From the sequence record MN850651.1: DNA of 64,000 nt; one strand, 5' to 3'. Positions 29,493 through 35,955 of the stretch are shown here, piece after piece. This stretch comes from Escherichia phage moskry. A program made the position numbers and the translations under genes. Below the pieces are notes generated by a model. It saw nothing but the letters and a program-made list of their open reading frames with translations, did no database searches and was not told the origin of the DNA. Positions within the stretch are counted from its first letter, which is position 1. Every line of letters starts with the position of its first letter.

Positions 29493-29524
29493 TGATAGTA
29501 TCACACATCCATGTGTTTGTAAAC
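29493..29524 (-). promoter_or_regulatory. Early-type promoter upstream of the alt.-1-like gene
   Basis: GTTTAC-N18-TACTATC on minus strand, overlapping the 3' end of alt. Confidence 0.55.
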
Positions 29525-31611
29525 TATCCTTGGACAAATTTAAACGGAACTGATTCTAAATCCATTAAAGATGCTAACAATTTCAATCCTTTAGGTGCAC
29601 TAGTTTTTTCTACAAATGAAGAGAACGATACCGGCTCATCCGATTCGATTTCACCCGTCATAGCAACCACCTCGCCTGTTTCCATGAGAACATCACCATC
29701 ATAAATGACAGCTTCGTCCAACTGGTCCGAGGACATGACTTCAGCTTGAATAAATTTAAGGTTGGATTCTAAACCTGCACCAGTGTCAGATGACGCATCT
29801 GTAATTTTATTTATTTGCAAGAGAATGCCTCTAGGCAAAATAATTTCTTGCTCATTAGGGTGATTACTCAACTGTCCTGGATAAATCACGTTAACTTTAT
29901 GAGCGCCATCAATAGCCCATCCAACGTTAACACGGATTTGTTCTGGCGCATGCATAGCTGTTCTTACTTGACTAGGAGAAATAGTAACACCTTCATCATT
30001 ATTGTCAATGTTAAGCTCTTTGCGAACTTCTTCAGGAGCAAGTCCAAGGGCAACGTTCTCTTTAAACCCACCGAAAATAATAGGAGCTAGTGAAGTGGAA
30101 ACATAGTTTCTGAAGTAGAATACCTTATTTTTAACCATTGCTTCGTAAATAGGCATTCTGATAGACTGAGCTCTATATAACGTTAGTCCTTCAGGTAAAC
30201 GGTCTCCATTTAAAAACGCTGAATCAAGACCATCGATAGCGCGTTTAACTTCATCTTCATCTGCAACATCGTAAAAATCTGGTTTATAACGACCTAACAA
30301 CATATTATTGATATCGGTATACGCAGAAGAGGCATATTCGCGAATAGCTCGTTTTTCAGCAACAGAGTATTGTTTAGGGTCCCGATTCATTGTTATATTA
30401 AAGGTGCCTCTAGCCGATTCTCGTGCATAAGTATACATCACATTAGACAAGAACGCTGATTTACGTTGTTTCCAAGTTTTTTCAGATACTTCAGCTAAAA
30501 CGTCGTCAGCCAGTTGGAAATTATCTCGTCTAAAATCTTCAAACCATTCGTCTTTAATAGAGTCTGCAATTTCATTTGCAGCTTCAACAAAAGCAGCTAA
30601 TGCTTTAACAGATGTTGTTTTTTCAGTTTTAATTTTCTTAGCAAACTTTTCTAAAGTTGGCTTAATAACACTACCATAAGAAACTTCATCGGCAAATCTA
30701 AAGGATTCATCAATACGATTATAAATCTTATTTTCGATATCAGCAACTAAAGTGCCTTTTGCTGTGGACGATGCTTGGGCTAGTACGATTTCATATGCTT
30801 CAGGAAGTAATTCGGCTGTAGCTGGGCCACTAACTTCTTTAGCAGAATTTTCGTATTTCTGGAATAACTCGCCTTCTTGGCGGTCAGCTTCTAAAGATTG
30901 ACTTGCTGCAATAGCACGACGAGAAATTTTGGTGCGAGCAATAACCGGCTTATCTTTACGTTTTTCTTCTACCGCGGCAATAGAACCAGCGATAGCCGTT
31001 TCTTTGGTGACCTTTTCACCGGTCTTTTTACTCACATAAACTTCGCCAACATCAGAATCTACTTTCGTGTACAACTCTGTGTTAATGTTAGGGATGCCTT
31101 TAATATCCTCAATGTTGGCATTTTTACGAACCATCATCACATAGGTGTGTTTACCTGTGAATTGATACATTGCCGACAATACTTTAAAACGACCACCGGT
31201 TTTAGTAGAAACTAAACGAGCAAGAAGAGTTTGAAGTTGTTGTCCGCGTCCTTTCAATTTCTTGGTAGGGAATCGGAACAGAACTGCATCCATACGAAGA
31301 GCTTTAACCTGTTCATATACTGTATTGAAAATGGTGTTGATTGCATCAATAGGAGCAGGACCAAGGCCGTTTTTCAATTCAGCGAGATTACCCTTTTCAG
31401 ACAGACTCATAATAACAACATGAGCGTATTTGTCGCCAAGTTTAACTTGTTTTACAGCGTCGCCTTCGGAAAGGTAAGAGAATAAACGAACTACAATATT
31501 TGTATCAACATCACCAATTTTCCAGACTTGTGGAACTTTAGCTTTAGGGTTCAAATTGACGACAGGAAGACTGCCTTCAGATTCAAACACTTCATTTAAT
31601 TGTTCAGACAT
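29524..31611 (-). CDS. alt: Alt ADP-ribosyltransferase (packaged, modifies host RNA polymerase)
   Basis: 695 aa; T4 Alt 682 aa; position between 54 and 30 on minus strand. Confidence 0.9.
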   Translation of the reverse strand: MSEQLNEVFESEGSLPVVNLNPKAKVPQVWKIGDVDTNIVVRLFSYLSEGDAVKQVKLGDKYAHVVIMSLSEKGNLAELKNGLGPAPIDAINTIFNTVYEQVKALRMDAVLFRFPTKKLKGRGQQLQTLLARLVSTKTGGRFKVLSAMYQFTGKHTYVMMVRKNANIEDIKGIPNINTELYTKVDSDVGEVYVSKKTGEKVTKETAIAGSIAAVEEKRKDKPVIARTKISRRAIAASQSLEADRQEGELFQKYENSAKEVSGPATAELLPEAYEIVLAQASSTAKGTLVADIENKIYNRIDESFRFADEVSYGSVIKPTLEKFAKKIKTEKTTSVKALAAFVEAANEIADSIKDEWFEDFRRDNFQLADDVLAEVSEKTWKQRKSAFLSNVMYTYARESARGTFNITMNRDPKQYSVAEKRAIREYASSAYTDINNMLLGRYKPDFYDVADEDEVKRAIDGLDSAFLNGDRLPEGLTLYRAQSIRMPIYEAMVKNKVFYFRNYVSTSLAPIIFGGFKENVALGLAPEEVRKELNIDNNDEGVTISPSQVRTAMHAPEQIRVNVGWAIDGAHKVNVIYPGQLSNHPNEQEIILPRGILLQINKITDASSDTGAGLESNLKFIQAEVMSSDQLDEAVIYDGDVLMETGEVVAMTGEIESDEPVSFSSFVEKTSAPKGLKLLASLMDLESVPFKFVQG

Positions 31612-31668: not shown

Positions 31669-31876
31669 AATCCACAATCGGGAGCAAAGTACGATAAACT
31701 TCAAAATTAGGGCCTTTTTCGTACGTATCAAAATTGTCCATAAAAATATTATAGGAATCGTTATTAGGAAAATCTAATATAATCTGAGAGCAAGAGGTGG
31801 AAACATCACCACCGTCTTTATTAGCGACAACTACTGTTTCTAAATAAGCTTTCATTATAAACCTGTCTGGGACCAC
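31667..31876 (-). CDS. Hypothetical protein (alt.1 position)
   Basis: 69 aa ORF between ligase and alt; start codon appears to be GTG. Confidence 0.6.
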   Translation of the reverse strand: MVPDRFIMKAYLETVVVANKDGGDVSTSCSQIILDFPNNDSYNIFMDNFDTYEKGPNFEVYRTLLPIVD

Positions 31877-33348
31877 GGTCCAAATACGTCTTCAAATGAA
31901 TCCGCTTCTGTTTTATCAAAACGGAACCCTTTAATAATTGGAAGGAAAATACCTACAGTACCTTCACGGCCTTTAGAATGAACCCAACCGTTACATTCAC
32001 AATCAGCGATACGTCCAATTAATTTACCTTCACGAGCTTCGGTCATTAATCGTTCACGGTCTAAATCATGACGCTCGTCTAAAGGAATAAGAACCTTTAC
32101 ACCGTCAACTGTTTTATGAGTTGTATCTTTAAAACCTGAACCACAATCGGTTGTAATACGACGACAACGTGATACGAGTTCGACACCACCTAATTTGTTA
32201 GGGTCTTTAGAGTGTTCATAGTATCCTACAACTTCTAAAGCGATATCAATAACTTCTTTAAATTTAATTAGGTTCTTAGAGCGTTTGTTTTCCCAATATG
32301 AATCACGGTTTTTAAGGATAATACCTTCAAGACCTTGGTCAACATATTTTTTATAAACCACTTTAGCTTCGTCAAGATTACGAACTAACTGATTTTCAAT
32401 TGGCTCAATTCGCTTAAAGCCTTCAGCCATATTTTCAAGAGCAGCAAAACGAACATCGTATTTCTGACCTTTAATTTTGCCATCAGAATAGACTTCATCT
32501 AAAGGAACATAGTCCCAGGCTTGAAGAACCATACCTTCCGCTTCTTTAGGAGAAATAGTCCCTTGAAGAGATTTATTTGCTAAACCATTTGAAGTGCTAC
32601 GGTCTGCAACCTGTACTTCTTCGGATTCTTCATTATCACCAAATAAGAACGACAGGTCATTTCCTGAGCTCACGGCCTTTTTAATATCAAATGAATGATA
32701 AACTAATTCACCGTCGATTAAAACCCCATTAGGGTGTCTTTCACGAGCTTCTTTAGTCATTTCCATTAGTTCATCCGCTAATAGAGTAAGACCATGGTAT
32801 TCATTACCAGCACGAGAAAAGAATTGAACACCATCATCGCGAACTTCAGCGAAACAACGAGCACCATCGGCTTTTAATTGAGCAAATGCAGGCCATTTAA
32901 TATTTTTAGTAATCAATTTCTCATCATATGCAGATGCTAACATCTGTGGTTGCAATTGAATAAGACCAGGCCATACCTTATTCGCGATAGACACTGAAGC
33001 ACCTACTTCAAGGTCTCGCATCATTACACGGCGTAGTACTTCAACATCATCAGGTTTACCGTCGGCGATATAACCCATGAGCTCTTTAATTGCTGCATTA
33101 CCAGTGAGTTTACGAGTGGCCAATGTGAACTCAATAAAATCCAACATGTCATCTAATTCAAGAAGGCCATACGCTTGAGACCTTTCACCTGGCCCAGGCC
33201 ATTTCTTAATATAATACTGAATGCCACGTGCATACGTTAAACGATATACACGTTCAAGTAATTTGTTGTCCTTATTTTTCTTAAGGATTTCCTGTTTTGT
33301 TTTAGTAGAACCGATCGCAGCTATTTGGTTTAAAATATCTAAAATCAT
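31855..33348 (-). CDS. 30: ATP-dependent DNA ligase gp30
   Basis: 497 aa; adenylation motif KADGARC; T4 ligase 487 aa. Confidence 0.96.
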   Translation of the reverse strand: MILDILNQIAAIGSTKTKQEILKKNKDNKLLERVYRLTYARGIQYYIKKWPGPGERSQAYGLLELDDMLDFIEFTLATRKLTGNAAIKELMGYIADGKPDDVEVLRRVMMRDLEVGASVSIANKVWPGLIQLQPQMLASAYDEKLITKNIKWPAFAQLKADGARCFAEVRDDGVQFFSRAGNEYHGLTLLADELMEMTKEARERHPNGVLIDGELVYHSFDIKKAVSSGNDLSFLFGDNEESEEVQVADRSTSNGLANKSLQGTISPKEAEGMVLQAWDYVPLDEVYSDGKIKGQKYDVRFAALENMAEGFKRIEPIENQLVRNLDEAKVVYKKYVDQGLEGIILKNRDSYWENKRSKNLIKFKEVIDIALEVVGYYEHSKDPNKLGGVELVSRCRRITTDCGSGFKDTTHKTVDGVKVLIPLDERHDLDRERLMTEAREGKLIGRIADCECNGWVHSKGREGTVGIFLPIIKGFRFDKTEADSFEDVFGPWSQTGL

Positions 33349-33614
33349 TTGATATCCTCGATTTTGGTTACGGTTCTATTATAAGCCACTTCATCTAGAA
33401 GCGATTTCAGCGTTTTCTGATAAGTGGTAATCCATTTACCGAGTCCTTCAACATAATATTCTGAAATGTAGATGAACCCTTGTTCAACACACTCTTTAAA
33501 TATTTCTGCGTCTTTTACTGAACGAAACACCGGCCAGTCTCGAAAGAACATGTTAACATGACCGTAGTCACGCGTTGTGTTTTTGCCATCTGTAATATCA
33601 TGAACTACAAACAT
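33345..33614 (-). CDS. Hypothetical protein (30.1 position)
   Basis: 89 aa ORF, start overlaps upstream gene stop. Confidence 0.7.
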   Translation of the reverse strand: MFVVHDITDGKNTTRDYGHVNMFFRDWPVFRSVKDAEIFKECVEQGFIYISEYYVEGLGKWITTYQKTLKSLLDEVAYNRTVTKIEDIK

Positions 33615-33623
33615 AATTAGCCC

Positions 33624-34439
33624 TTAACAATTTATAGACCAAGTCCATTTAGACGAATCTAAAGGAAAGTTTTGAATCGTCCACCATGGCTGCATATCGG
33701 TTGGTCCTGGGGTTCGCCAGGTATACGGATTCGACGGAGCGCCGATTTGATTAGGCCATGCGCCTGGACTTGTTGCACCAGATTCTTTAAGCAAATCTGC
33801 CAATCGTTTTAAAAGGTCTTCACGATCTGAATCTGAATTATGCTCTGGCGGAACCAATCGAGATTCAATATCATCCCACGTGTGTACACGTTGTGCAGTA
33901 CGAGGAATGGCATCACGTTCACCACGAGCCAACCAATAAATTGGTACATTAAGAATTTCTGCTGCATGGTCACAGTGATGAGCTAAATCGTCAACGTAAC
34001 AAATCACGTTATATTTTGTTTTAGCTAGTTCAAATAATTGTTCCTTTGAAGAATCATGACCACACATCATTACTTCAGAGAAAGCGCCTGGGAACAAAGC
34101 ATTCAAATTAAATTGTCTATTCAATCTAGCATCAATTGAATCACCTAGCGCCGTCACGGCTACAAAATTATAGTCTTCTTTTAGTTTATTGATAACTCGA
34201 AGAGCATCCGAATAAGGCGCTAAGTAACGAATAAAATCAGAGCTATTATATTTTTCTATTAATTGTTTACCAAGGTTATCGTCGGTATTGAACAGTTTAC
34301 CAGGAGAAATAAATTTTTCGTCCTGAATCATTTTTAAAATATGTTCTAATGGAAGATTATATTTTTGGGCAAAATAAGGAAGTCCAGATTGCCAGCTTAA
34401 ACATACACCATCAATATCAGTCAAAATAGTAGGCTTCAT
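33624..34439 (-). CDS. HAD-superfamily hydrolase-like protein (30.2 position)
   Basis: 271 aa; N-terminal DIDGV matches HAD motif I (DxDG[TV]); Trp-rich C-terminal tail; stop overlaps gene 30. Confidence 0.7.
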   Translation of the reverse strand: MKPTILTDIDGVCLSWQSGLPYFAQKYNLPLEHILKMIQDEKFISPGKLFNTDDNLGKQLIEKYNSSDFIRYLAPYSDALRVINKLKEDYNFVAVTALGDSIDARLNRQFNLNALFPGAFSEVMMCGHDSSKEQLFELAKTKYNVICYVDDLAHHCDHAAEILNVPIYWLARGERDAIPRTAQRVHTWDDIESRLVPPEHNSDSDREDLLKRLADLLKESGATSPGAWPNQIGAPSNPYTWRTPGPTDMQPWWTIQNFPLDSSKWTWSINC

Positions 34440-34903
34440 AAAGAGTCTCTTAATAGGTTTAACACATCAATAAATTCAGCTTCGGTTAATATTGTATCAT
34501 CTTTTGTTAGGTGGCTGGCCATGCTGTGCTTCAAAATTTTTCCTTTCGAAGCCTGTAATGCATCACGAAAGCCTTTGTTTTGGATCGCGGCTTCAAAATA
34601 TGCATTTGTGTATAATTCTTTCCACGCTTCAGAGTATCTTGAAAATGGAACTCCTAACCAGAAGAGAGTCCCATGGTCCTGAGCTCTTGCATAAGACCTT
34701 CCGGCTTGCTGTGCGGCCAGTCCTGACAGCCCAAATATACGTCTTTGTTGTTCAACATTTTTCACCTTACATCCTTGGAGAAATCCTTCAAGACCTCCGA
34801 ATTGAATACCATCCATAACGAAAGGCCACTGGGCAAAATTACTTAATGCACATGACGGCCATCTAAAATTGCTTCTAATCTCTAACTCAGACATCTTTAA
34901 CAC
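34436..34903 (-). CDS. NADAR / YbiA-like domain protein (30.3 position)
   Basis: 155 aa; LSNFAQWPFVMDGIQF...LEGFLQGCK parallels E. coli YbiA FSNFAAWPIKVDGKTW...SEHYFQAQK; ATGA overlap with the HAD gene. Confidence 0.75.
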   Translation of the reverse strand: MLKMSELEIRSNFRWPSCALSNFAQWPFVMDGIQFGGLEGFLQGCKVKNVEQQRRIFGLSGLAAQQAGRSYARAQDHGTLFWLGVPFSRYSEAWKELYTNAYFEAAIQNKGFRDALQASKGKILKHSMASHLTKDDTILTEAEFIDVLNLLRDSL

Positions 34904-35099
34904 TTATAATTTCAACATCAGCCCAATGTCCATAAGCCGGTAGACGGTCTTTGATAGATAATCCACCGTCATATTTCAGCATTTTAATTGTTTTAGTATA
35001 TGGTTCAACTTTTCGGGCCCATGGGCTTACATCAGTCACACGATACGTAACTTCAATCATTTCCATACCAAACAATTTCTGGATTAATTTATTCAACAT
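34887..35099 (-). CDS. Hypothetical early protein
   Basis: 70 aa ORF in compact minus-strand array. Confidence 0.6.
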   Translation of the reverse strand: MLNKLIQKLFGMEMIEVTYRVTDVSPWARKVEPYTKTIKMLKYDGGLSIKDRLPAYGHWADVEIISVKDV

Positions 35100-35340: not shown

Positions 35341-35955
35341 CTACTTAACGAAATTAATTTCTACCGGATGAACAACAGGTTGAGCAGTGATATATTGAGT
35401 AATTGCTTTCATGACTAGAGCTTCAGAACCAGGATTTTTCTCAACGAATTCACGTGCTTGGTTATGGGCTTCAAGTTCACTTAGTAAACCGGAACGTTGG
35501 CATCCACGGTCTTGAGTACCCTGTTCAGATAAAAAGACGACTATGTATTTTTCATCGTCATACGGTTTAGACGGTTGAGCAAATGTTCCTTTACTTCCAA
35601 AAGGAGAGTTATGACGCCACATCACGCCGTGAGGAGTTTCAACCTTCGTATATTCGTGCGGGCCATTTTTCTTAGTTTCTTGATGTGGAACTTCGTGGAC
35701 CTTAGGGTTAGGACATTCAATAAAATGCTCATCTAAATCGGTCGAGAATATTAAAGTAAAACAATTACTAAATTTACCAACACCTGCCTGATAAATTTTA
35801 CCTTCAGAAGTTCTAATTTCACAAACTGAGCCAGCATCAGTAACTTCTAAAACTTCAAAAGGCTCGATAAGGTCATATGAGAACATGTTTTTAAGGCGTG
35901 GAGTAATATCCCCATTTTTAAAATTCATTTTATAAAAAGTATTAACTTTAAACAT
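35341..35955 (-). CDS. Hypothetical early protein, 204 aa
   Basis: Long ORF with ATG start; hairpin upstream; no recognised motif. Confidence 0.75.
   Translation of the reverse strand: MFKVNTFYKMNFKNGDITPRLKNMFSYDLIEPFEVLEVTDAGSVCEIRTSEGKIYQAGVGKFSNCFTLIFSTDLDEHFIECPNPKVHEVPHQETKKNGPHEYTKVETPHGVMWRHNSPFGSKGTFAQPSKPYDDEKYIVVFLSEQGTQDRGCQRSGLLSELEAHNQAREFVEKNPGSEALVMKAITQYITAQPVVHPVEINFVK

What the first reader, a model, noticed from the sequence alone, without database searches (positions are those of the whole stretch)
33624..34903. Translationally coupled NADAR/YbiA-like and HAD-like hydrolase genes downstream of DNA ligase
The 155-aa ORF has the NADAR signature (LSNFAQWPF...DG...LEGFLQGCK, compare E. 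coli YbiA FSNFAAWPIKVDGKTW...SEHYFQAQK). NADAR proteins are reported to hydrolyse ADP-ribose from guanine in DNA, reversing DarT-type toxin modification, so this may be an anti-defence enzyme. It overlaps (ATGA) a 271-aa protein with an HAD motif I (DIDGV) N-terminus and an unusual Trp-rich C-terminal tail. The coupling suggests a two-step pathway; the second step is speculative.
Basis: partly seen in the sequence, partly recalled or inferred. Interest (0 to 1): 0.55.

Follow-up and report, generated by a model that had tools for sequence, protein, structure and literature searches.

The report
Known phage anti-DarT enzyme AdfN
This is an intact copy of adfN (T4 gene 30.3), an already characterised phage enzyme that strips ADP-ribose off phage DNA to defeat the bacterial DarTG1 defence; the phosphatase-like gene overlapping it (30.2) is uncharacterised and published data show it is not needed for that job.

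Summary
Two minus-strand genes lie at 33624-34903 and share an ATGA stop/start overlap. The window is an RB69-like (Mosigvirus) T-even phage, and the genes are 30.3 and 30.2.

Gene 30.2 is a confident HAD-fold phosphatase with all four motifs, closest to 5'(3')-deoxyribonucleotidases (NT5C). Its Trp/Pro-rich tail is predicted disordered and is variable across relatives.

The proposed two-step pathway is not supported. In published T4 transposon sequencing under DarTG1, 30.3 collapses (log2FC -7.25) while 30.2 is unaffected (-0.12, p=0.61). The two genes are unlinked in about half of T4-like lineages, and 30.2's constant neighbour is the DNA ligase. Overlapping junctions are routine in this cluster.

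Verdict: already known; low interest.

The parts
34436..34894 (-). adfN (T4 gene 30.3): 152-aa NADAR-fold DNA ADP-ribosylglycohydrolase, full-length allele. Key codons: S18-N19-F20 at 34835-34843, E36 at 34787-34789, K43 at 34766-34768, H123 at 34526-34528. The C-terminal helix (residues 138-152) lies at 34439-34483.
34895..34903 (-). Probably not translated as part of the protein.
   Evidence: T4 has GCA at the GTG position; both the T4 and RB69 annotations start at the ATG
34484..34484 (-). Site (nt 411 of adfN) where RB69 carries an extra T that frameshifts and truncates its AdfN. The window reads AACCGAAG, i.e. the intact allele.
   Evidence: DNA alignment; PMC11257639
34436..34439 (-). 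ATGA junction: the 30.2 start codon overlaps the adfN stop codon.
   Evidence: same junction in T4 and in 15 of 16 overlapping viral loci
33855..34439 (-). Gene 30.2 catalytic core (residues 1-195): HAD-fold phosphatase with a C1-type helical cap. Motif I D8/D10 at 34410-34418, W16 at 34392-34394, motif II T96 at 34152-34154, motif III K132 at 34044-34046, motif IV D150-D151 at 33987-33992.
33765..33854 (-). Gene 30.2 residues 196-225: acidic linker plus one predicted helix (203-219).
33624..33764 (-). Gene 30.2 C-terminal tail (residues 226-271 plus stop): Trp/Pro-rich and predicted disordered.
   Evidence: pLDDT <50; 6 W and 7 P in 46 residues; tail absent in 19 of 52 homologs and poorly conserved
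34887..35099 (-). Gene 30.4 (70 aa, function unknown). Its stop overlaps the adfN start by 8 nt (ATGTCTGA).
   Evidence: the T4 orthologue is the only other gene depleted under DarTG1 (log2FC -1.79, q=0.014)
33345..33614 (-). Gene 30.1 (DUF3045), 9 nt downstream of 30.2, sharing an ATGA overlap with the ligase gene.
   Evidence: PF11243 E=1.1e-26
31855..33348 (-). Gene 30, ATP-dependent DNA ligase: the conserved downstream neighbour of 30.2.
   Evidence: PF01068; ligase lies within 600 nt downstream of 30.2 in 68 of 77 viral loci

Best explanation
The locus is the 30.4-30.3-30.2-30.1-30 early-gene cluster of an RB69-like T-even phage. Gene 30.3 is adfN, a single-domain NADAR enzyme. During infection of a host carrying DarTG1, the DarT1 toxin ADP-ribosylates guanines in phage DNA and blocks replication; AdfN hydrolyses the guanine-ADP-ribose bond and restores the DNA. 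The mechanism is shown for T4 AdfN and inferred here from 97% identity, intact catalytic residues and an intact C-terminal helix. Unlike RB69's frameshifted copy, this allele should be functional, so this phage is predicted to resist DarTG1. Gene 30.2 is a separate enzyme: a Mg-dependent HAD phosphomonoesterase with a small-molecule (C1) cap, most like 5'(3')-deoxyribonucleotidases, so it most likely dephosphorylates a (deoxy)nucleoside monophosphate or a similar small phosphate ester. This is inferred and the substrate is unknown. Its Trp/Pro-rich tail is a disordered, lineage-variable appendage. The ATGA overlap reflects the tight packing typical of T4 early operons and may couple translation, but it does not indicate a shared pathway.
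Against: No experiment has been done on this exact allele. It differs from T4 AdfN at 5 positions (R77H, P92E, V119I, I124M, G127H in T4 numbering), none of them at invariant columns. Mosigvirus DNA carries arabinosyl-hmC rather than glucosyl-hmC, so substrate context differs, although the paper reports that full-length Mosigvirus relatives Bas46/47 are DarTG1-resistant. PF08719 does not hit the window protein directly. For gp30.2, no curated HAD or NT5C model passes its threshold on this protein (best HAD_2 E=0.013), so the subfamily call rests on fold and transitive hits. T4 30.2 has no phenotype in LB, M9 or under DarTG1, so there is no functional read-out for it at all. The published authors suggest that T-evens encode 'another factor' needed for full AdfN activity; redundancy could mask a contribution from gp30.2.
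Confidence: 0.85

Rival explanations
1. One reading: AdfN and the HAD protein form a two-step pathway. AdfN releases ADP-ribose from DNA and gp30.2 processes the product or a phosphorylated intermediate, and the ATGA coupling ensures co-expression.
For: ATGA overlap conserved in T4 and in 15 close or moderately divergent loci, including one with only 43-47% identical proteins. Both genes are quasi-core in T4-like phages, with near-identical host distributions: 1510 vs 1439 GenBank records. The published suggestion that T-evens encode another factor needed for full AdfN activity.
Against: T4 Tn-seq under DarTG1: 71 insertion sites in 30.2, log2FC -0.12, p=0.61, whereas 30.3 gives -7.25. Ectopic AdfN alone rescues RB69, and purified AdfN alone clears ADP-ribose from DNA in vitro. 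36 of 73 gp30.2 loci lack a nearby 30.3, and in at least 10 complete genomes the genes are about 55-60 kb apart. In RB69 the frameshift has already uncoupled them. Overlapping junctions are routine here. No HAD enzyme acting on free ADP-ribose is known to me (my own knowledge).
Confidence: 0.04
2. gp30.2 is a DNA-end-healing 3'-phosphatase that prepares nicks for the adjacent DNA ligase.
Against: The model has a roughly 75-residue helical C1 cap over the active site; from general HAD knowledge, such caps go with small-molecule rather than macromolecular substrates. NT5C is by far the commonest specific family among relatives, 34 vs 1 for HAD_PNKP. T4 already has PseT. T4-like genomes are strongly syntenic, so adjacency may be purely historical. 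30.2 is non-essential while the ligase is essential.
Confidence: 0.07
3. The window's AdfN allele is inactive or has a different specificity from T4 AdfN, so it does not protect against DarTG1.
For: Five substitutions relative to T4. The host phage has a different DNA hypermodification. AdfN activity is known to depend on context: it gives no rescue in uninfected cells or for T5/Bas25.
Against: All family-invariant and mutagenesis-validated residues are present. The C-terminal helix is intact. The paper reports that every T-even with a full-length allele, including RB69's closest relatives, resists DarTG1, and that T4 AdfN works in RB69 infections.
Confidence: 0.04

Closest known systems
AdfN (anti-DarT factor NADAR) = T4 gp30.3, Pfam PF08010 Phage_30_3
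   Same: 97% identical over the same 152 residues. Same gene position (between 30.4 and 30.2) and same 8-nt and 4-nt overlaps. It has E36, K43, the clade-specific H123 and the C-terminal helix.
   Different: Five conservative or surface substitutions. The host phage is a Mosigvirus (arabinosyl-hmC DNA) rather than a Tequatrovirus. Unlike the type Mosigvirus RB69, the gene is not frameshifted.
DarG1 / BC4488-type NADAR antitoxins (e.g. Geobacter lovleyi NADAR, 8bat) and eukaryotic PnNADAR (8bau)
   Different: No N-terminal extension. Not encoded next to a DarT toxin (an orphan). His replaces the Asp/Glu in the last strand. T4 AdfN cannot neutralise DarT1 in uninfected cells.
E. coli YbiA (2b3w; PF08719, YbiA subfamily)
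   Different: YbiA has Glu in the last strand. It is a housekeeping protein linked to riboflavin-intermediate N-glycosidase activity and swarming. About 21% identity.
5'(3')-deoxyribonucleotidases cdN/mdN and bacterial relatives (Pfam NT5C PF06941; 2jao, 2i7d, 1mh9, 3bwv), for gp30.2
   Same: HAD core with a C1 cap. Motif I is DxDGV followed by an aromatic residue eight positions after the nucleophile (W16 aligned to Phe in 2jao). Top Foldseek hit and the best target-normalised TM-scores (0.63-0.70).
   Different: Only 15-20% identity. No curated model passes its threshold on the window protein. The cap is larger. There is an extra helix and a 46-residue Trp/Pro-rich disordered tail. The substrate is untested.

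Membership tests
AdfN / Phage_30_3 (PF08010) | Hit to PF08010 above the gathering score | tested here: met
   231.7 bits vs cutoff 36, E=2.7e-69, covering model positions 1-138 of 138
AdfN / Phage_30_3 (PF08010) | Full-length protein with the C-terminal helix that is lost in the inactive RB69 allele | tested here: met
   Residues 138-152 (EAEFIDVLNLLRDSL) are identical to T4, with no extra T at nt 411; predicted helix at 138-151
AdfN / Phage_30_3 (PF08010) | Protects phage replication against DarTG1 during infection | not testable with these tools
   Shown for T4/T2 orthologues (PMC11825919; HIDEN-SEQ Data S6). Inferred here from 97% identity.
NADAR superfamily | Hit to the Pfam NADAR model PF08719 | tested here: not met
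   No hit for the window protein even at E<=10. However, 22 of 61 family members hit it on their own (best 1.5e-07), and the family profile hits YbiA at E=0.0044.
NADAR superfamily | YbiA fold (helical core flanked by two small sheets) | tested here: met
NADAR superfamily | Catalytic Glu and Lys of the E-x-x-x-Q-x-x-K segment, plus a charged or His residue in the last strand | tested here: met
   E36, Q40, K43 and H123 are invariant in 61 relatives. E36A and K43A inactivate T4 AdfN. His is the phage-clade replacement of Glu/Asp.
NADAR superfamily | Hydrolysis of ADP-ribose from guanine in DNA | not testable with these tools
   Published in vitro for the T4 protein
HAD superfamily (gp30.2) | Four catalytic motifs: DxD, S/T, K, DD | tested here: met
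   D8, D10 and K132 are invariant; T96, D150 and D151 are >=90% conserved in 52 homologs
HAD superfamily (gp30.2) | Rossmann-like HAD fold | tested here: met
HAD superfamily (gp30.2) | Curated HAD profile above threshold | tested here: not met
   HAD_2 at 16 bits vs cutoff 23.8, E=0.013; NCBIfam hits only far below their cutoffs
NT5C 5'(3')-deoxyribonucleotidase family (gp30.2) | Hit to PF06941 | tested here: inconclusive
   No hit for the window protein. 10 of 52 close homologs hit it (best 0.002), and 34 of 82 distant relatives hit it (best 4.2e-10), making it the commonest family.
NT5C 5'(3')-deoxyribonucleotidase family (gp30.2) | Structural similarity including the cap, and a base-stacking aromatic residue eight positions after the nucleophile | tested here: met
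   Foldseek top hit 2jao at E=5.9e-08; TMt 0.63-0.70 for cdN/mdN/3bwv vs roughly 0.50-0.60 for most other HADs. W16 aligns to the Phe of 2jao and is >=90% conserved in distant relatives. The base-stacking role of that Phe comes from my own knowledge.
NT5C 5'(3')-deoxyribonucleotidase family (gp30.2) | dNMP phosphatase activity | not testable with these tools
   No biochemical data found; 'gp30.2' returns no papers
Functionally coupled two-gene module (30.3 + 30.2) | Both genes required for the same phenotype | tested here: not met
   From published T4 Tn-seq: 30.3 log2FC -7.25 (q=0) vs 30.2 -0.12 (p=0.61) under DarTG1
Functionally coupled two-gene module (30.3 + 30.2) | Adjacency conserved across divergent relatives | tested here: not met
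   Of 73 informative gp30.2 loci: 16 overlapping, 6 adjacent, 15 separated by other ORFs, 36 with no 30.3 in the flank

The most novel reading that the evidence does not exclude
gp30.2 is not a housekeeping nucleotidase. Instead it is a counter-defence or pool-sanitising enzyme of T4-like phages: an NT5C-like phosphatase that destroys a defence-derived or toxic nucleotide (for example a chain-terminating or deaminated dNMP, or a nucleotide signal). Its Trp/Pro-rich disordered tail would dock it onto a phage or host partner. Its phenotype would appear only on hosts carrying the matching defence, which would explain why it is quasi-core yet dispensable in K-12 in LB, in M9 and under DarTG1. A weaker variant is that it is a redundant helper of AdfN, the 'another factor' postulated in the Nat Commun paper.
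Probability: 0.1. Interest if true: 0.6.

Novelty: already known. Interest (0 to 1): 0.15.

Why it matters
For the main claim, nothing new is learned. AdfN's fold, activity and anti-DarTG1 role were published in 2023-2025, and this window simply carries an intact orthologue. Three smaller points have practical value. First, the allele here is the functional type, unlike the reference Mosigvirus RB69, so this phage should resist DarTG1. Second, automated annotation based on PF08719 alone will miss AdfN, because it is captured by PF08010. Third, gp30.2 remains an uncharacterised enzyme found in about 1,400 sequenced phages. It can now be described as an NT5C-like HAD phosphatase that always travels with the DNA ligase, and it can be set aside as the missing AdfN co-factor.

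Tried and rejected
1. A direct PF08719/NADAR hit on the window protein: none at E<=10. phmmer against PDB: none.
2. gp30.2 profile against PDB sequences: only marginal hits (EngB at 0.038, probably spurious; 2jao at 0.46). NCBIfam: nothing useful.
3. Promoter and terminator scans of 31.5-38.2 kb: promoter-like sites at chance level (23 found vs 20.8 expected) and no minus-strand terminators, so nothing can be said about transcription units beyond 'no obvious break'.
4. gp30.4 as a conserved NADAR partner, prompted by its depletion in the DarTG1 Tn-seq: jackhmmer finds it upstream of gp30.3 only in 14 close T-even loci and in none of the divergent loci. A polar or coupling effect is therefore the simpler reading.
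5. Literature on gp30.2: one badly chosen search returned noise, and 'gp30.2' as a term returns zero papers.
7. The RB69-type frameshift allele in IMG/VR: 0 exact matches vs 4 for the intact allele. The numbers are too small to estimate a frequency.
8. T4's annotated internal ORF 30.3' is interrupted by a stop codon in the window, so I did not treat it as part of the feature.
9. LB vs M9 Tn-seq for a metabolic phenotype of 30.2: none (log2FC -0.10, p=0.61).

Full report
**What is at the coordinates.** The stretch 33624-34903 holds two minus-strand ORFs. The first runs 34436-34903, 155 aa from a GTG. The conserved start is the ATG at 34894, giving 152 aa. T4 has no start codon at the GTG position, and both the T4 and RB69 annotations begin at the ATG. 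The second ORF runs 33624-34439 (271 aa). On the minus strand, 34436-34439 reads ATGA, so the second gene's start codon overlaps the first gene's stop codon. The YbiA string it quoted matches the sequence of PDB 2b3w. The tail of the second protein is Trp-rich: 6 of the last 46 residues, against a 1.3% background in the window's ORFs (P = 3e-5), and it is also 15% Pro.

**Genomic setting.** The surrounding genes are an Alt-type ADP-ribosyltransferase, an ATP-dependent DNA ligase, a DUF3045 protein, a GroES-like gp31 and dCMP deaminase. The DNA is 96-97% identical to many RB69-like (Mosigvirus) coliphages. Gene order matches T4 and RB69: 30.4, 30.3, 30.2, 30.1, 30. The two ORFs are therefore genes 30.3 and 30.2.

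**Gene 30.3 is AdfN, which is already known.** Johannesman et al. (bioRxiv 2024, PMC11257639; Nat Commun 2025;16:1598, PMC11825919) mapped DarTG1 resistance of T-even phages to gene 30.3 and renamed it adfN.
- Deleting it from T4 or T2 makes the phage DarTG1-sensitive by about four logs.
- Ectopic AdfN fully rescues RB69.
- The E36A and K43A mutants are dead.
- Purified AdfN removes ADP-ribose from DarT1-modified DNA.
- RB69 is sensitive because an extra T at nt 411 truncates its protein by 15 residues.

Other work agrees. An independent study showed guanine-ADP-ribose hydrolysis in vitro by the T4 phage NADAR (PMC11125620). Schuller et al. 2023 had already listed phage NADARs as a clade with His in place of the last-strand Glu/Asp. 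A T4 transposon-sequencing study found 30.3 insertions lost under DarTG1.

**The window's allele.** It is 97% identical to T4 AdfN across all 152 residues. It carries AACCGAAG where RB69 has AACTTGAAG, so it is not frameshifted and keeps the C-terminal helix. S18-N19-F20, E36, Q40, K43 and H123 are invariant in an alignment of 61 relatives that includes the window protein. I infer that the allele is active and that this phage resists DarTG1.

**Independent test of NADAR membership.** That model does not hit this protein even at E<=10; PF08010 (Phage_30_3) hits at 2.7e-69.
- A profile built from 61 relatives hits E. coli YbiA (2b3w) at E=0.0044, over exactly the SNF...DG...E-x-[FY]-x-Q-x-x-K segment.
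- 22 of the 61 relatives hit PF08719 individually, best 1.5e-07.

Fold, motif and transitive homology all agree with the published assignment.

Several lines point to the 5'(3')-deoxyribonucleotidase (NT5C) branch:
- The only sequence-level PDB hit is 2jao, and it aligns DIDGVCLSWQSGL to NMDGVLADFESGL.
- Foldseek ranks 2jao first (E=5.9e-08). It gives deoxyribonucleotidases the highest target-normalised TM-scores, 0.63-0.70.
- 10 of 52 close homologs weakly hit PF06941.
- In an exhaustive profile search (1,081 cluster representatives at E<=1e-3), 34 of 82 distant relatives hit PF06941, best 4.2e-10. That is twice as many as hit any generic HAD model.
- The Trp eight residues after the nucleophile is >=90% conserved in those relatives. 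From my own knowledge, it aligns with the base-stacking Phe of cdN/mdN.

My best reading is a Mg-dependent phosphatase acting on a (deoxy)nucleoside monophosphate or a similar small molecule. The substrate is inferred, not shown.

**The tail.** It is predicted to be disordered. It diverges with indels between T4 and the window and is absent in 19 of 52 homologs. Where it is present it is Pro- and aromatic-rich. Many lineages carry a GIEYL..QPT motif that the window and RB69 versions lack. It is an accessory appendage whose role is unknown.

**Is there a two-step pathway?** Four lines of evidence say no.

1. Genetics. In the HIDEN-SEQ T4 data set (supplementary file 7, sheet Data S6, control vs DarTG1), exactly two genes are significant. 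They are 30.3 (mean 261.0 to 0.7, log2FC -7.25, q=0) and 30.4 (-1.79, q=0.014). Gene 30.2, with 71 insertion sites, goes from 271.5 to 249.8 (log2FC -0.12, p=0.61). 30.2 is also non-essential on K-12 (72 of 72 sites hit) and neutral in LB vs M9.
2. Sufficiency. AdfN alone works in trans and in vitro.
3. Comparative genomics. The table below gives the position of 30.3 in 73 informative loci encoding gp30.2 relatives. At least 10 complete T4-like genomes carry the NADAR gene about 55-60 kb from 30.2. By contrast, 30.2 sits within 600 nt upstream of the ligase in 68 of 77 loci. Both genes occur in about 1,450-1,500 GenBank phages with the same host spectrum, so co-presence only reflects that both are quasi-core in this phage family.
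4. Overlaps are routine here. ATGA also joins 30.1 to the ligase, 30.4/30.3 overlap by 8 nt and 30.5/30.4 by 11 nt. About 13 of 24 junctions in the homologous T4 stretch overlap.

| Position of 30.3 relative to 30.2 | Loci (of 73) |
|---|---|
| Overlapping (15 of these via ATGA) | 16 |
| Adjacent, within 150 nt | 6 |
| 150-1,500 nt upstream, with other ORFs between | 15 |
| No 30.3 in the flank | 36 |

The overlap may well couple translation, but it is not evidence of shared function.

**A lead that did not hold up.** The Nat Commun Discussion proposes that T-evens encode 'another factor' needed for full AdfN activity, and 30.4 is the only other DarTG1 hit. I asked whether a gp30.4 homolog follows the NADAR gene in divergent phages. 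It does so only in the 14 close T-even loci. A polar or coupling effect of insertions just upstream of adfN is the simpler explanation, though a lineage-specific helper role is not excluded.

**Verdict.** The window adds an intact Mosigvirus allele. The HAD partner is real and still uncharacterised. It is probably an NT5C-like nucleotidase, and it is not part of the anti-DarT mechanism as far as published genetics and synteny can tell. Novelty: already known. Interest: low.

Noticed in passing
window 34887-35099 (-), gene 30.4: In published T4 transposon sequencing under DarTG1, 30.4 is the only significant gene besides adfN (log2FC -1.79, q=0.014). It overlaps the adfN start by 8 nt (ATGTCTGA). 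This may be a polar effect, or it may be the 'another factor' postulated for AdfN. A gp30.4 homolog accompanies the NADAR gene only in close T-even relatives.
   Followed up: partly
window 34520-34758 (-): T4's annotated out-of-frame internal ORF 30.3' (75 aa) is interrupted by a stop after 34 codons in this phage, so it is not conserved and may not be a real gene.
   Followed up: yes
window 35341-35955 (-): A 204-aa ORF occupies the slot where T4 and RB69 carry the unrelated 95-aa gene 30.6. It has no Pfam hit (PHROG 17531, function unknown) and is found in about 120 GenBank phages, almost all RB69-like. The slot is variable and could hold an accessory or anti-defence gene.
   Followed up: partly
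proteins P0107, P0112-P0116, P0150, P0199: Public data contain many truncated gp30.3 proteins (83-126 aa). Some are chimeras carrying Pfam domains of gp30.7 (PF06919), gp30.8 (PF06019) or PF11097. This indicates recurrent deletions across the 30.3-30.8 region and repeated loss of adfN in nature.
   Followed up: no
loci L032, L035, L054, L060, L062, L065, L066, L075-L077 vs L143, L130, L154, L103, L109, L098, L117, L102, L100, L101: In at least ten complete T4-like genomes (Klebsiella/Enterobacter/Serratia/Erwinia-type, 162-176 kb), the NADAR gene lies about 55-60 kb from the 30.2-ligase block. The adfN gene has therefore been relocated, or acquired separately, during the evolution of this phage family.
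   Followed up: partly
window 33345-33348, 34436-34439, 34887-34894, 35089-35099: Four consecutive gene junctions in the cluster are start/stop overlaps: ATGA, ATGA, 8 nt and 11 nt. No minus-strand terminator-like site lies between 31.5 and 38.2 kb. This is consistent with one tightly packed polycistronic unit.
   Followed up: yes
window 29524-31611 (-), alt: A 695-aa Alt-type ADP-ribosyltransferase (PF03496, E=6e-28) lies about 3 kb from the ADP-ribose-removing AdfN. The proximity is shared with T4 and RB69, and nothing suggests a functional link.
   Followed up: no
alignment A4, C-terminal columns: Many gp30.2 tails in other lineages end with a conserved G-[IV]-E-Y-L-x-x-x-P-T motif. T4 has it, but the window and RB69 versions lack it. 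It could be a short linear interaction motif.
   Followed up: no
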